Below are positions 11,101 to 14,100 of a DNA stretch of 64,000 nt, one piece after another. The position numbers were made by a program. Each line of letters starts with the position of its first letter. Position 1 is the stretch's first letter. This stretch comes from Escherichia coli (GTDB lineage Bacteria; Pseudomonadota; Gammaproteobacteria; Enterobacterales; Enterobacteriaceae). The DNA lies in the NCBI RefSeq assembly GCF_041886205.1, contig NZ_CP169029.1. One strand, 5' to 3'.

Positions 11101-14100
11101 CACGTAGCGCAAGATTCAACGGACCGACACCATCAGGTAGATGACTCATTCGCGTCATTATTTCGACAGAGAGCGGTTCACGGTCGAGCAACCCCAGAAC
11201 AACAGGCTGGTAACCCAATTGCTGATCGGTCAACTCCAGAATCTCATTGTCCGGCATATATCTCGCCATACTTTCAATCGTTTGTTCATCATTGCTATTA
11301 ATAAGTTGTTTGCGTAGGTTAGCTGAAATTCCTTTAAGCCTTGGGAGAGTTCGCATTATGGCAAGATCAAATGTCGCAATATCTCGTCCTTCAAATGCAG
11401 CAACGTTGCCTTCATCCAGCATTTGCAATTCCTGCACTAACTCAGGAGAAGGCTTAGGGCGAAACAGCGCTTCTTTTTTCATCTGATTACAGACATTCCC
11501 TGCCATGCGAATATTGCTTCGCTTAAAAATTTCTTTCAGAGCATCTTCATCATTTATTCGACCCTAATAATATGCATCAGGATTTATTATCATCAGCGCT
11601 TTTTTGACATTTTCAGTGTCATTTTTGTCACTCGCACGGACCATGAATTCACTATTTGTCGAAGACGCAACAACAGGTGCAATTATGTCATTGATAAATA
11701 TCCCACGCGCATTAATACTCCCCTTAATCGTAGACGGATTATCGTAATATGAGTCGATAAATACCAGTCCACTTGCATTTATCGAACCGGTAATTAACAG
11801 TGGCGAATCTGTAACTATATTTGTTGCCGTCACGTTACCGAGAATAACCCATGGATTAGAAAGAGAGAAAGTGGAAATATTACCTTTGACTGTCAAATTG
11901 CCAAGAACAATCAATTTTTGATTACTCTCTATATTACCTTCTACCACTAAATCGCCACGATGCACTTTCCAGTCCGATGCAGATAAACCGAAGGGGACAA
12001 GATTCACGCTACTGTTGATAGCTTGTTCAACTTGTTGTTTATCTTCAGCGGTAGCTGCAGATAAAAATGGTTCAATATCAACTGCATTTGCAACACATCG
12101 AAGTTCCGCCTGTACTGGAAGACTCAGCATAAACAGGGGAAGTAAACCTATCCAGCTGCAAATCCTGGGCTTAAACATATGCACTCCATGCCATTAAAAA
12201 AGAAACAAAAGGGAAATGCATCTTTCCCTTTTGTATATTCGTTATTCTCGCGAAATACCATCCAACGTAGACAACACTTCCTCAGAAAGATGCAATTTTT
12301 CAGCAGCCATATTCTCCCGTAAATGCGCAACAGAAGATGTCCCTGGGATCAGCAAAATATTCGGTGAACGTTGTAACAGCCACGCCAGCGCCACCTGCAT
12401 GGGTGTTGCACCCAGGCTCGCAGCAACATCCGACAGCGTAGAGGATTGCAGCGGTGTAAAGCCCCCGAGCGGGAAGAACGGCACGTAGGCAATGCCATCG
12501 CGGGCCAAAGCATCAATCATTGCATCATCCGCACGATGAGCAATGTTGTATTCGTTCTGCACGCAGACGATTTCGGCAATCTTGCGTGCCTCTGCAACCT
12601 GCGTCGGTGTGACGTTGCTCAGGCCAATATGTTTTACCAGACCTTGTTGTTGCATCTCAGCCAGCACGGTCAGGCTGGCCTCAATCGATCCTTCCGCTGG
12701 GCCATGACCATCCCCCATCATAACGCGCAGGTTAACCACATCCAGTACGTCCAGGCCGAGATTACGTAGATTATCGTGCACCGCTTTTTGCAACTCTGCC
12801 GGAGAAAAGGCGGGCAACCAGGAAGCGTCCTCTCCACGCCGCGCACCAATTTTAGTGACAATTGTCAGGTCGTCAGAGTAAGGATAAAGCGCTTCGCGGA
12901 TAATCTGATTGGTGACGTGCGGACCATAAAAGTCGCTGGTATCAATGTGATTGACGCCCAATGCCAGCGCCTCGCGCAGCACAGTTATAGCGACGTGGCG
13001 ATCTCTTGGGGGACCAAAAACCCCAGGACCTGCCAGTTGCATCGCGCCATAACCAAGACGGTTAACGGATTTTGTACCGAGAGTAAATGTATTGCTGCTC
13101 ATCGCACCCTGCCCTGTAATAAAACGGATTAAGAAAAATCAGTATAGAAACGAAAAGAGATAAATAATGCGAAGGTGTAAACAAGATTACTGGATGAGTT
13201 GCTCTATTGTCCTGAAAGACACCAAAACAAAACGCGTCAAGTACCGCATCCGGCAATAAAAAAACCGCAACCTGTATCAGCGTTGCGGTTTAGGGATCAC
13301 ATGCTAAAAATTAGAACGTTTTCTTGAAGTTCAGCATCACGCCTTTGTCGCTGATGCCGTCCTCTTTCCAGTTGTACGCATCCAGATTCAGCGAACTTTC
13401 TTTGCTGCTGTACTTCACGCCGACGCTTGCCAGGCTGTTAATGCCGCCGCCCTTCTGACCGTCATCGACGTTAAAGTGCTGACTGCCTGCGCCTGCCAGG
13501 CTTGCCGTACGCTGGCTCTTCGCGTAGCTCAGGTTCGGCCCGCCTTCCAGCGTGGCGTTCGCACTCCAGCCGTCTTTTCCTGCATAATCCAGCTTCAGCC
13601 CGACGATGCTGTCCACCGCCGTTTCGCTGCCGCTGTTCATATTCAGGTTAAAGTCTCCGGCGTTACGCTCCTTATAGCCACCTTCCAGTGTGTGACGCAG
13701 TTTTACACCCGCATATGGCGTAACCTTCAGTCCTTCGCTCGGTTCGAAAGTCTTCGCTCCTTCGCTACGGAACTCCAGGTACTGCTGCTTCACGTCGGTA
13801 TCAGCCGTTTTGTTCGTGTTGCTAAATGCAATCGAGCGGCTGCTGTCAAGGTTGTGAACGTCGTAACGCAAGGCGTTATTCCAGTTCATGCCATTGTCGA
13901 AGGACATCTGATGTTTCAGGCCAAAGAACTGGCTATAACCGCCTGTAACGCCATTATCACCCGCTTTCTGCGCACCATCACCATCGAGACGAGCGATACC
14001 GTACTCCAGACTCATCGTCTGGCTTTCGCTCAGGTCGATGGTTTTACGCAATGCCAGCATGTCGTATTCGGTATTATTACCTAACTCGGCACGCGGATCG

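What the first reader, a model, noticed from the sequence alone, without database searches (positions are those of the whole stretch)
11504..11566. Single in-frame amber codon splits ydbD into 206-aa and 544-aa ORFs
ORFs 11564..12184 and 9872..11506 share a reading frame, and the only stop between them is TAG at 11564-11566, followed by 19 open codons before the next Met. The combined frame of about 770 codons matches the expected size of the K-12 YdbD periplasmic protein, so this looks like a nonsense allele (or a sequencing error).
Basis: seen in the sequence. Interest (0 to 1): 0.45.

Follow-up and report, generated by a model that had tools for sequence, protein, structure and literature searches.

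The report
Inherited amber stop in ydbD
The stop codon is real: one G-to-A change turned tryptophan codon 205 of the E. coli gene ydbD into a stop, the change is inherited by a worldwide clone, and it is an ordinary dead gene whose only unusual feature is that the same codon has been knocked out independently in other strains.

Summary
On the minus strand, ydbD (window 9872-12178, 768 codons) has one in-frame TAG at 11564-11566, which is codon 205.

- **Ancestral codon:** K-12, other intact alleles and a near-identical haplotype (ET201) have TGG. Trp205 is invariant in E. coli and E. albertii homologues.
- **Not a sequencing error:** the same 81-mer with TAG is in 7 of 5426 complete E. coli genomes. 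They come from six countries and from pig, cattle, bear, poultry and human. PGAP already flags ydbD there as "pseudo, internal stop". The window is an eighth member of that clone, 6 SNPs in 31 kb from strain wlxctx60.
- **Not two natural genes:** homologues are single ORFs of 768 aa.
- **No sign of suppression:** there are no tRNA genes in the window, the Gln tRNAs of a carrier are wild type, and no carrier has supF.

So this is an ordinary clonal nonsense pseudogene. The neighbouring ynbA-ynbC genes are also lost here, through a 1610-bp deletion.

Two side-findings are suggestive but unproven. Codon 205 became a stop at least four times independently (TAG three times, TGA once). Six of eight ydbD-damaged lineages also carry a lesion in the ynbABCD operon.

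The parts
9872..12178 (-). ydbD pseudogene: 768 codons including the internal stop, with the annotated ATG start at 12178
   Evidence: It is 100% identical to ydbD in LHM10-1, VE-T9, CP52E and wlxctx60, where it is flagged 'pseudo, internal stop'. It has the same length and frame as K-12 b1407.
11564..11566 (-). Premature amber codon TAG, codon 205. The mutated base is 11565 (coding-strand G614A; TGG Trp to TAG).
   Evidence: Intact alleles and ET201 have TGG. W205 is invariant in 8 homologues down to 80% identity.
11567..12178 (-). Remaining N-terminal ORF of 204 aa: a signal-peptide-like start, then a beta-strand (bactofilin-like) region
   Evidence: Translation is. Pfam gives a weak Bactofilin match at residues 78-141 (E = 0.047). 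The model has strands at 70-163 and a helix at 185-198, but confidence is low.
11507..11563 (-). 19 sense codons between the stop and the next in-frame ATG
   Evidence: By eye there is no Shine-Dalgarno-like sequence before the ATG at 11506.
9872..11506 (-). Downstream 544-aa ORF: the all-helical C-terminal part, including DUF2773. It is probably untranslated and has no signal peptide.
   Evidence: Pfam DUF2773 matches residues 688-768 (E = 2.3e-45). The model is helical from residue 225 to 767.
11551..11574 (-). Imperfect inverted repeat around the mutated base (CDS nt 605-628: CAT-A-TTATT[A]G GGT C[G]AATAA ATG)
   Evidence: On the common haplotype (T at nt 620) G614A completes a 7-bp stem with a 3-nt loop. 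The window haplotype has G at nt 620, so here it does not.
8037..9701 (-). In-frame ynbA'-'ynbC fusion ORF left by a 1610-bp deletion that removed the ynbA 3' part, all of ynbB and ynbC codons 1-93. The junction microhomology is at 9507-9515.
   Evidence: PGAP annotates two partial pseudogenes here in XJ5.2, 6EVA, VE-T9, wlxctx60, MB53 and ET201.
12205..12234 (-). Terminator-like hairpin after pdxI, just upstream of the ydbD start
   Evidence: This is a consensus scan only.

Best explanation
A single G-to-A transition changed Trp codon 205 (TGG) of ydbD to the amber stop TAG in the ancestor of one E. coli clone. All sampled members of the clone, including the genome this window comes from, inherited it.

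Translation should stop after residue 204. The product would be at most a 204-aa fragment: a signal-peptide-like start plus the beta-strand domain, without the 563-residue helical part that includes DUF2773. The downstream 544-aa ORF is a leftover with no evident ribosome-binding site. The gene is therefore a pseudogene.

It sits in a locus that is decaying as a whole in this clone. A 1610-bp deletion has already removed the 3' part of ynbA, all of ynbB and the 5' end of ynbC. Some clone members have added IS1 or transposon damage.

**Shown:** the mutation, its ancestral state, its inheritance in independent assemblies, and the neighbouring deletion.

**Inferred:** loss of function, no translation of the C-terminal ORF, and the order of events (deletion first, stop second). 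The order rests on ET201, which has the deletion but still has TGG.
For: - **The stop and its frame:** one TAG, with no other stop or indel in 2307 nt.
- **Ancestral state:** TGG in K-12, ws5-3, STEC383, RM9872 and same-haplotype ET201. W205 is invariant in the homologue alignment.
- **Inheritance:** the exact 81-mer with TAG is in 7 of 5426 complete genomes. PGAP marks ydbD there as 'pseudo, internal stop'. The window differs from every one of them; the closest is wlxctx60, with 6 SNPs in 31 kb. It is therefore a further independent assembly of the same clone.
- **Wider spread:** the exact 204-aa and 544-aa products occur in further NCBI, ENA and Logan assemblies, including E. coli N1.
- **ydbD is dispensable and weakly constrained:** it is absent from about 1430 of 5426 genomes. 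Pairwise nonsynonymous and synonymous codon differences are about equal. IS1, frameshift and other nonsense lesions occur in other lineages.
- **No suppressor found:**
Against: - No expression or protein data exist for this strain, so loss of function is inferred.
- UAG allows a low basal level of read-through in E. coli (general knowledge), so trace full-length protein cannot be excluded.
- Only glnV/X, glnU/W (one carrier) and tyrT/V (all genomes) were checked for suppressor alleles. serU, leuX, trpT and lysT were not resolved, because the combined query could not rank them.
- The raw reads of the window's own genome were not available.
Confidence: 0.93

Rival explanations
1. The TAG is a sequencing or assembly error, and the real genome has an intact ydbD.
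For: A single-base difference is the kind of thing an error could produce. Related assembly ET201 does show a probable homopolymer error in ydbD (A5 to A4 at nt 1594).
Against: The same base is present in 7 complete genomes from different laboratories, hosts and countries, plus the window itself. It is a substitution outside a homopolymer. It co-segregates with the clone's rare haplotype and with the ynbA-ynbC deletion.
Confidence: 0.01
2. The two ORFs are naturally separate genes: a bactofilin-like gene and a DUF2773 gene.
For: The stop falls in a low-confidence linker between a beta-strand N-terminal region and an all-helical C-terminal region. Where an IS1 splits the gene, PGAP gives the halves two different names.
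Against: All homologue clusters with many members are single ORFs of 768 aa (8466, 2541 and 4820 member sequences), including E. albertii at 80-89% identity. The codon at the split is an invariant Trp. The downstream ORF has no signal peptide and no evident ribosome-binding site (by eye).
Confidence: 0.01
3. The amber codon is read through, by a suppressor tRNA or by efficient natural read-through, so functional full-length YdbD is still made.
For: The rest of the frame is still completely open. The clone has accumulated almost no further changes in ydbD, only 0-1 SNPs among members.
Against: Carrier XJ5.2 has wild-type glnV/glnX and glnU/glnW anticodons. The supF-type tyrT allele appears only in the laboratory strain OV2. 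An open frame is expected anyway for a young pseudogene. One member, MB53, has since lost the gene's 5' end to IS1, which argues against retained function.
Confidence: 0.03
4. The stop is not neutral decay. It is either selected, or produced by a mutation hot spot, or both. In this view codon 205 is a preferred knock-out site, and loss of ydbD is favoured once the neighbouring ynbABCD operon is damaged (or the reverse), because the two form one functional module.
For: **Recurrence at codon 205.** There are four independent stops.
- TAG in the window clone.
- TAG in Z226-5/-6, which equals the STEC383 allele plus this one SNP.
- TAG in the SRR14865351 contig, which equals the O145:H28 allele plus this one SNP.
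- TGA in E24377A.

**Controls.** Screens of six other Trp codons (12 possible G-to-A stop changes) found one lineage, against three for codon 205. The binomial P is 0.010, or 0.055 without the ascertained clone.

**Quasi-palindrome.** On the common haplotype G614A perfects an inverted repeat. Only 2 of 283 possible nonsense substitutions in ydbD do that.

**Pairing with ynb lesions.**
- Window clone: the ynbA-ynbC deletion.
- Z226: ynbC W66 amber, with only 5 SNPs in 14.3 kb.
- SRR14865351: ynbD W243 amber, with only 2 SNPs in 8.6 kb, both amber.
- GE3, S. flexneri 2a and PSS-04 also carry both kinds of lesion.

**Literature.** Price et al. list YdbD and YnbB together among six very weakly expressed K-12 proteins that are nonetheless important for fitness (10.1101/038851).
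Against: - Numbers are small and codon 205 was chosen after the fact.
- PSJ-36/LR-25 and E24377A have a broken ydbD with intact ynbABCD.
- About 630 genomes keep ynb sequence but lack ydbD.
- The window haplotype has G at nt 620, so the quasi-palindrome does not explain the window's own mutation. It does not explain the TGA in E24377A either.
- The ynbC W66 amber lies in a CCTGG Dcm site, a classical deamination hot spot (general knowledge), so it needs no selection.
- The base rate of ynb lesions in genomes with intact ydbD was not measured.
- ynbA has its own promoter (PMC3950696), so the genes are not one transcription unit.
Confidence: 0.25

Closest known systems
E. coli K-12 ydbD (b1407, NP_415925.2; 'DUF2773 domain-containing protein YdbD')
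   Same: Same locus (pdxI-ydbD-ynbABCD-azoR-hrpA), same length and frame, and 97.6% DNA identity.
   Different: K-12 has TGG at codon 205 and an intact ynbABCD. The window has TAG and a 1610-bp ynbA-ynbC deletion.
RefSeq ydbD pseudogenes annotated 'internal stop' in LHM10-1 (E1J55_RS12165), XJ5.2, 6EVA, VE-T9, CP52E, wlxctx60 and MB53
   Same: The same allele, 0-1 SNP from the window over 2307 nt, with the same TAG.
   Different: Nothing essential. Some members carry extra damage: an IS1 deletion of the 5' end in MB53, and a Tn3/IS26 resistance insertion at the ynbA-ynbC junction in LHM10-1 and CP52E.
ydbD W205 opal allele of ETEC E24377A, and the W205 amber alleles of Z226-5/-6 and SRR14865351
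   Same: A stop at the same codon, each allele one SNP away from an intact allele.
   Different: They have independent origins on other haplotypes. E24377A uses TGA (G615A) and keeps ynbABCD intact.
Quasi-palindrome (template-switch) mutation hot spots such as the E. coli thyA hot spot (Viswanathan, Lovett and colleagues; recalled from memory, not checked here)
   Same: On the common ydbD haplotype the recurrent G614A converts an imperfect inverted repeat into a perfect one.
   Different: The repeat is short and AT-rich (7-bp perfect stem; DNA folding energy -1.8 to -3.3 kcal/mol). The window's own haplotype does not fit. No mutation-rate data exist.
Amber hot spots at Dcm sites (CCWGG; 5-methylcytosine deamination, Coulondre and Miller; recalled from memory)
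   Same: A G-to-A change making TAG from a one-step codon. The ynbC W66 amber in Z226-5 lies in CCTGG.
   Different: The ydbD codon 205 context is ATTGG, which is not a Dcm site.

Membership tests
Nonsense (premature-stop) pseudogene of ydbD | Orthology to an intact gene by sequence and synteny | tested here: met
   97.6% DNA identity to K-12 b1407 over the full 2307 nt. Gene order is the same: pdxI upstream, ynb genes, azoR and hrpA downstream.
Nonsense (premature-stop) pseudogene of ydbD | A stop codon replaces a sense codon that is conserved in intact orthologues, one mutational step away | tested here: met
   TGG to TAG at codon 205. W205 is invariant in 8 homologues.
Nonsense (premature-stop) pseudogene of ydbD | The stop is real, meaning it is reproduced in independent assemblies | tested here: met
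   7 complete genomes plus the window. Named NCBI records carry both fragments.
Nonsense (premature-stop) pseudogene of ydbD | The stop is not decoded (no suppressor tRNA or recoding) | tested here: inconclusive
   Gln tRNAs are wild type in XJ5.2. There is no supF allele outside the laboratory strain OV2. serU, leuX, trpT and lysT were not resolved, and no protein data exist.
YdbD family (DUF2773 domain-containing bactofilin, PGAP name) | C-terminal DUF2773 domain (PF10971) | tested here: met
   Residues 688-768, E = 2.3e-45. The domain is encoded downstream of the stop, so it would not be translated.
YdbD family (DUF2773 domain-containing bactofilin, PGAP name) | N-terminal bactofilin domain (PF04519) | tested here: inconclusive
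   Only a weak hit at residues 78-141 (E = 0.047). There is no NCBIfam match above cut-off. The model shows beta strands at 70-163 but mean pLDDT is 54.
Quasi-palindrome templated mutation hot spot | The mutation makes an imperfect inverted repeat perfect, using the other arm as template | tested here: not met
   It is met on the common haplotype with T at nt 620, as in Z226 and the O145-type allele. It is not met for the window haplotype, which has G at nt 620, so A614 faces G620. The window's own mutation is therefore not filed under this mechanism.
Quasi-palindrome templated mutation hot spot | Independent recurrence of the identical change | tested here: met
   G614A occurs on three haplotypes, each one SNP from an intact allele.
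Quasi-palindrome templated mutation hot spot | Raised mutation rate that depends on the repeat and on replication or exonuclease background | not testable with these tools
   This needs reporter or fluctuation assays.
Dcm (CCWGG) deamination hot spot | The mutated G pairs with the inner C of a CCWGG site | tested here: not met
   The context is TATTATTGGGGTC, which has no CCWGG.

The most novel reading that the evidence does not exclude
Codon 205 of ydbD is a recurrent knock-out site. It has at least four independent stop-gains, and on the common haplotype these may be driven partly by a quasi-palindrome. Knock-outs of ydbD are also repeatedly paired with knock-outs in the adjacent ynbABCD lipid-enzyme operon, in two lineages within a handful of SNPs. 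The reading this allows is that the Escherichia-restricted protein YdbD and YnbABCD form one envelope-related functional module, and that partial loss of the module selects for loss of the rest.
Probability: 0.2. Interest if true: 0.5.

Novelty: already known. Interest (0 to 1): 0.22.

Why it matters
As it stands this matters little. It is a lineage-specific pseudogene of a poorly understood, weakly expressed and often-missing gene, and automatic annotation already flags it. It can serve as a simple clone marker (ydbD G614A plus the 1610-bp ynbA-ynbC deletion).

The side-finding would matter more if it holds. Repeated paired inactivation of ydbD and ynbABCD would be the first genetic hint of what YdbD does. 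It would link YdbD to the YnbB/CdsA-type lipid enzymes implicated as a backup for MPIase glycolipid synthesis (PMC6362211). It would also offer a natural example of a short quasi-palindrome acting as a nonsense hot spot.

Tried and rejected
- **Combined suppressor query.** I joined amber-suppressor versions of glnV, tyrT, serU, leuX and trpT into one 305-nt query. Chance extension of the tyrT piece made it the 'best place' in every genome. Only supF could be read off (present only in OV2), and the '>=99%: 106' band could not be interpreted. I then located glnV/X and glnU/W in carrier XJ5.2 by synteny and found them wild type.
- **Literature.** A search for the clone's strain names, to get a sequence type, returned only unrelated papers. 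A search for 'ydbD' found almost nothing on the E. coli gene apart from Price et al..
- **Counting carriers by exact protein look-up.** The 204-aa fragment appeared on three further haplotypes. Inspection showed that many of these are gene calls cut by contig ends, because the Logan contigs stop exactly at CDS nt 614 with G. The contig counts (423 and 333) are therefore upper bounds. Only L033, L034 and L038 carry a real TAG.
- **L034 and L038.** These have window-type bases at nt 614 and 620 on a STEC383-like backbone. They may be recombinants or chimeric assemblies, so I did not count them as independent origins.
- **ET201's frameshift.** It sits in an A5 run in an assembly with many indels, so I did not count it as a lesion.
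- **Structure prediction.** Mean pLDDT was 54 from a shallow alignment, so I ran no fold search.
- **Gene conversion from the window clone.** I rejected this as the source of the Z226 allele. The tract would have to include nt 614 but end before nt 620.
- **A Dcm site at codon 205.** Rejected from the sequence context.
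Full report
**1. The observation.** An ORF at 11564..12184 (206 aa from a GTG) and an ORF at 9872..11506 (544 aa) lie in one frame. They are separated by a single TAG at 11564-11566 and 19 sense codons. RefSeq annotation of all relatives starts the gene at the ATG at 12178, so the frame is 768 codons with the stop at codon 205. The flanking genes are pdxI (12242-13102) upstream and ynb genes, azoR and hrpA downstream, as in K-12.

**2. The ancestral codon.** I aligned the frame with ydbD from K-12 MG1655, ws5-3, STEC383, O145 RM9872 and others.
- All intact alleles have TGG (Trp) at codon 205. The window has TAG, a G-to-A transition at CDS nt 614, which is window base 11565.
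- There is no other stop or indel.
- Strain ET201 carries the same rare haplotype, 2 substitutions and one homopolymer indel away, but has TGG. The change therefore happened on this haplotype.
- Trp205 is invariant in an alignment of eight homologues down to 80% identity, including E. albertii.

**3. Real or artefact.**
- The full 2313-nt stretch is 100% identical in four complete RefSeq genomes and one SNP away in two more.
- An 81-nt query centred on the TAG matches exactly in 7 of 5426 complete E. coli genomes: LHM10-1, VE-T9, XJ5.2, MB53, CP52E, 6EVA and wlxctx60.
- These come from pig, cattle, poultry, an Asiatic black bear and humans, in China, Vietnam, Thailand, Singapore, Japan and Cuba. 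PGAP marks ydbD in them as 'pseudo, internal stop'.
- The window is none of these genomes. The closest is wlxctx60, at about 99.98% identity over all 64 kb with one repeat-length difference.
- The exact 204-aa and 544-aa products also occur in other NCBI, ENA and Logan assemblies, such as E. coli N1. Those contig counts are upper bounds (see paragraph 8).

A sequencing error is excluded.

**4. Not two natural genes, and not obviously suppressed.**
- A search of the 5.8-billion-protein collection found homologues only in Escherichia and Shigella. The large clusters are single ORFs of 768 aa, with a minority of 711 aa.
- Pfam finds DUF2773 at residues 688-768 (E = 2.3e-45) and a weak bactofilin match at 78-141.
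- A low-confidence model (pLDDT 54) puts beta strands at 70-163, a helix at 185-198, an unstructured stretch around residue 205, and helices from 225 to 767. The stop therefore removes the whole helical part.
- The window has no tRNA genes.
- In carrier XJ5.2 the four Gln tRNA genes have wild-type anticodons.
- A tyrT/tyrV amber-suppressor allele was found only in the laboratory strain OV2. Other possible suppressors were not resolved.

**5. The locus is decaying in this clone.**
- Immediately downstream, a 1610-bp deletion with 9 bp of microhomology (window 9507-9515) fuses ynbA codon ~63 in frame to ynbC codon 94 and removes ynbB.
- All clone members and ET201 share this deletion, so it probably predates the stop.
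- Later damage differs by member. MB53 lost pdxI and the ydbD 5' end to IS1. LHM10-1 and CP52E have a Tn3/IS26 aminoglycoside-resistance module inserted at the deletion junction.
- ydbD is dispensable in general. It gives no match in about 1430 of 5426 genomes. Pairwise comparisons show roughly as many nonsynonymous as synonymous codon differences.
- Other lineages carry other lesions: IS1 insertions in PSJ-36 and LR-25; IS1 truncation in S. flexneri 2a; a frameshift in GE3; a W673 amber plus IS1 truncation in PSS-04; and a 43-residue in-frame deletion that removes residues 196-238.

**6. Recurrence at codon 205.** This was unexpected.
- Z226-5 and Z226-6 carry the same TAG on a different haplotype, 36 differences from the window allele. 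That allele equals the intact STEC383 allele plus only G614A.
- A 90.9-kb Logan contig from SRR14865351 carries the same TAG on the O145:H28 allele, again with G614A as the only difference in ydbD.
- ETEC E24377A has TGA at the same codon, through G615A.
- As controls I screened six other Trp codons in the complete genomes with queries in which TGG was replaced by TAA. W70, W375, W707 and W708 gave nothing. W672/W673 gave one lineage.
- That makes three lineages for the two possible changes at codon 205, against one lineage for twelve control changes. The binomial P is 0.010, or 0.055 if the ascertained window clone is left out. This is suggestive, not conclusive.

**7. A possible mutational cause.** On the common haplotype the sequence is CAT-A-TTATT[G]G GGT C[T]AATAA ATG, an imperfect inverted repeat in which G614 faces T620.
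- G614A makes a perfect 7-bp stem with a 3-nt loop. The predicted DNA folding energy goes from -1.8 to -3.3 kcal/mol.
- Only 38 of 6912 possible substitutions in ydbD do this, and only 2 of the 283 possible nonsense substitutions.
- This is the signature of template-switch mutation at quasi-palindromes. That mechanism is recalled from the literature and was not tested here.
- It fits the Z226 and O145-type events. It does not fit the window clone, whose haplotype has G at nt 620, and it does not fit the TGA of E24377A.
- Codon 205 is not in a Dcm site.

**8. A caution on the look-up counts.** Exact look-ups found 204-aa fragments on further haplotypes. Inspection showed that many are gene calls cut by contig ends. 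Logan contigs from different runs and at least three haplotypes end exactly at CDS nt 614 with the ancestral G. I cannot explain this. A within-sample variant, or a sequence-specific read error at nt 615 next to the inverted repeat, are possibilities.

Two further contigs (L034, L038) combine window-type bases at nt 614 and 620 with a STEC383-like backbone. They may be recombinants or chimeras, and I did not count them.

**9. Pairing with ynbABCD lesions.**
- Z226-5 differs from STEC383 at only 5 sites in 14.3 kb. Four of them are ydbD W205 amber, ynbA T104I, ynbC W66 amber and ynbC S208P. The ynbC change lies in a CCTGG Dcm site.
- The SRR14865351 contig differs from O145 RM9872 at 2 sites in 8.6 kb: ydbD W205 amber and ynbD W243 amber.
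- Only about 3% of coding transitions in this region create stops.
- Adding the window clone, GE3, S. flexneri 2a and PSS-04, six of eight ydbD-lesion lineages also have a ynb lesion. PSJ-36/LR-25 and E24377A do not.
- The base rate of ynb lesions in ydbD-intact genomes was not measured. ynb sequence is present in about 630 more genomes than ydbD.
- ynbA has its own BglJ-RcsB-activated promoter (PMC3950696). YnbB is a non-essential CdsA paralogue proposed as a backup for MPIase synthesis (PMC6362211).
- Price et al. list YdbD and YnbB together among six proteins expressed below 1 ppm yet important for fitness in K-12 (10.1101/038851).

A functional link between ydbD and ynbABCD is therefore plausible but unproven.

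**10. Verdict.** The finding is a genuine, clonally inherited nonsense mutation (W205 amber) that makes ydbD a pseudogene. Automatic annotation of related genomes has already recorded it, so it is ordinary. The recurrence at codon 205 and the co-decay with ynbABCD are worth a proper population-scale test, but they do not change the classification.

Noticed in passing
window 8037-9701 (junction 9507-9515), minus strand: A 1610-bp deletion with 9-bp microhomology fuses ynbA codon ~63 in frame to ynbC codon 94 and removes ynbB, leaving a 554-codon chimeric ORF. All clone members and ET201 share it.
   Followed up: yes
window 13311-19220, minus strand (repeat difference near 18850-18894): The BigA/YdbA-type autotransporter is one open frame of 1969 codons here. 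Its internal repeat region differs in length between clone members (annotated lengths 6036-6186 nt). It carries an internal stop in wlxctx60 and 6EVA, and is IS-disrupted in K-12, Z226-5 and STEC383.
   Followed up: partly
L029-L032, L035-L037 (Logan contigs), last base = ydbD CDS nt 614: Contigs from many unrelated sequencing runs and at least three ydbD haplotypes end exactly inside codon 205 (…TATTATTG). This produces spurious 204-aa 'proteins' in the big collection. The cause is unknown. A within-sample variant or a read-error hot spot at nt 615 next to the inverted repeat are possibilities.
   Followed up: partly
L008 (Z226-5) 23422-25179; L033 (SRR14865351) 13741-15057: The two other W205-amber lineages each carry a second TGG-to-TAG mutation in the ynb operon: ynbC W66, which lies in a CCTGG Dcm site, and ynbD W243. 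Each lineage differs from its nearest intact relative by only 2-5 SNPs.
   Followed up: yes
L040 (E24377A, NC_009801.1) 7428-9734: The reference ETEC strain E24377A has TGA at the same ydbD codon 205 (G615A) with ynbABCD intact. This is a fourth independent stop at this codon.
   Followed up: yes
L001 and L011 (LHM10-1, CP52E), just downstream of ydbD: A Tn3-family transposase, IS26, IS1133 and aph(3'')-Ib/aph(6)-Id module is inserted in the chromosome at the ynbA-ynbC deletion junction in two clone members. It is absent from the window.
   Followed up: no
L007, L009, L012, L013 around locus position 34349-34522 (outside the window): The small gene ydcA also carries an internal stop in four clone members but not in MB53 or ET201. 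This is a second young nonsense pseudogene in the same clone.
   Followed up: no
L014 / L004 (ET201): ET201 is a mosaic. Its ydbD and ynb-deletion segment is nearly identical to the window clone, while most of the sequence on the hrpA side is only about 97.8% identical. The assembly has many small indels, so its ydbD 'frameshift' (A5 to A4) and its ynbD 'internal stop' may be errors.
   Followed up: partly
ydbD CDS nt ~576-715 (window ~11464-11603): The linker region around codon 205 collects several kinds of lesion in other strains: an IS1 insertion after nt ~591 (PSJ-36, LR-25), and a 43-codon in-frame deletion between the KKAL and KKEAL repeats that removes residues 196-238 (protein P0036, 725 aa, 16 contigs).
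   Followed up: partly
L041 (PSS-04): PSS-04 and PSJ-32-1 carry ydbD W673 TGG-to-TAG. PSS-04 also has an IS1-mediated loss of pdxI and the ydbD 5' end, and an IS1 insertion in ynbB.
   Followed up: partly
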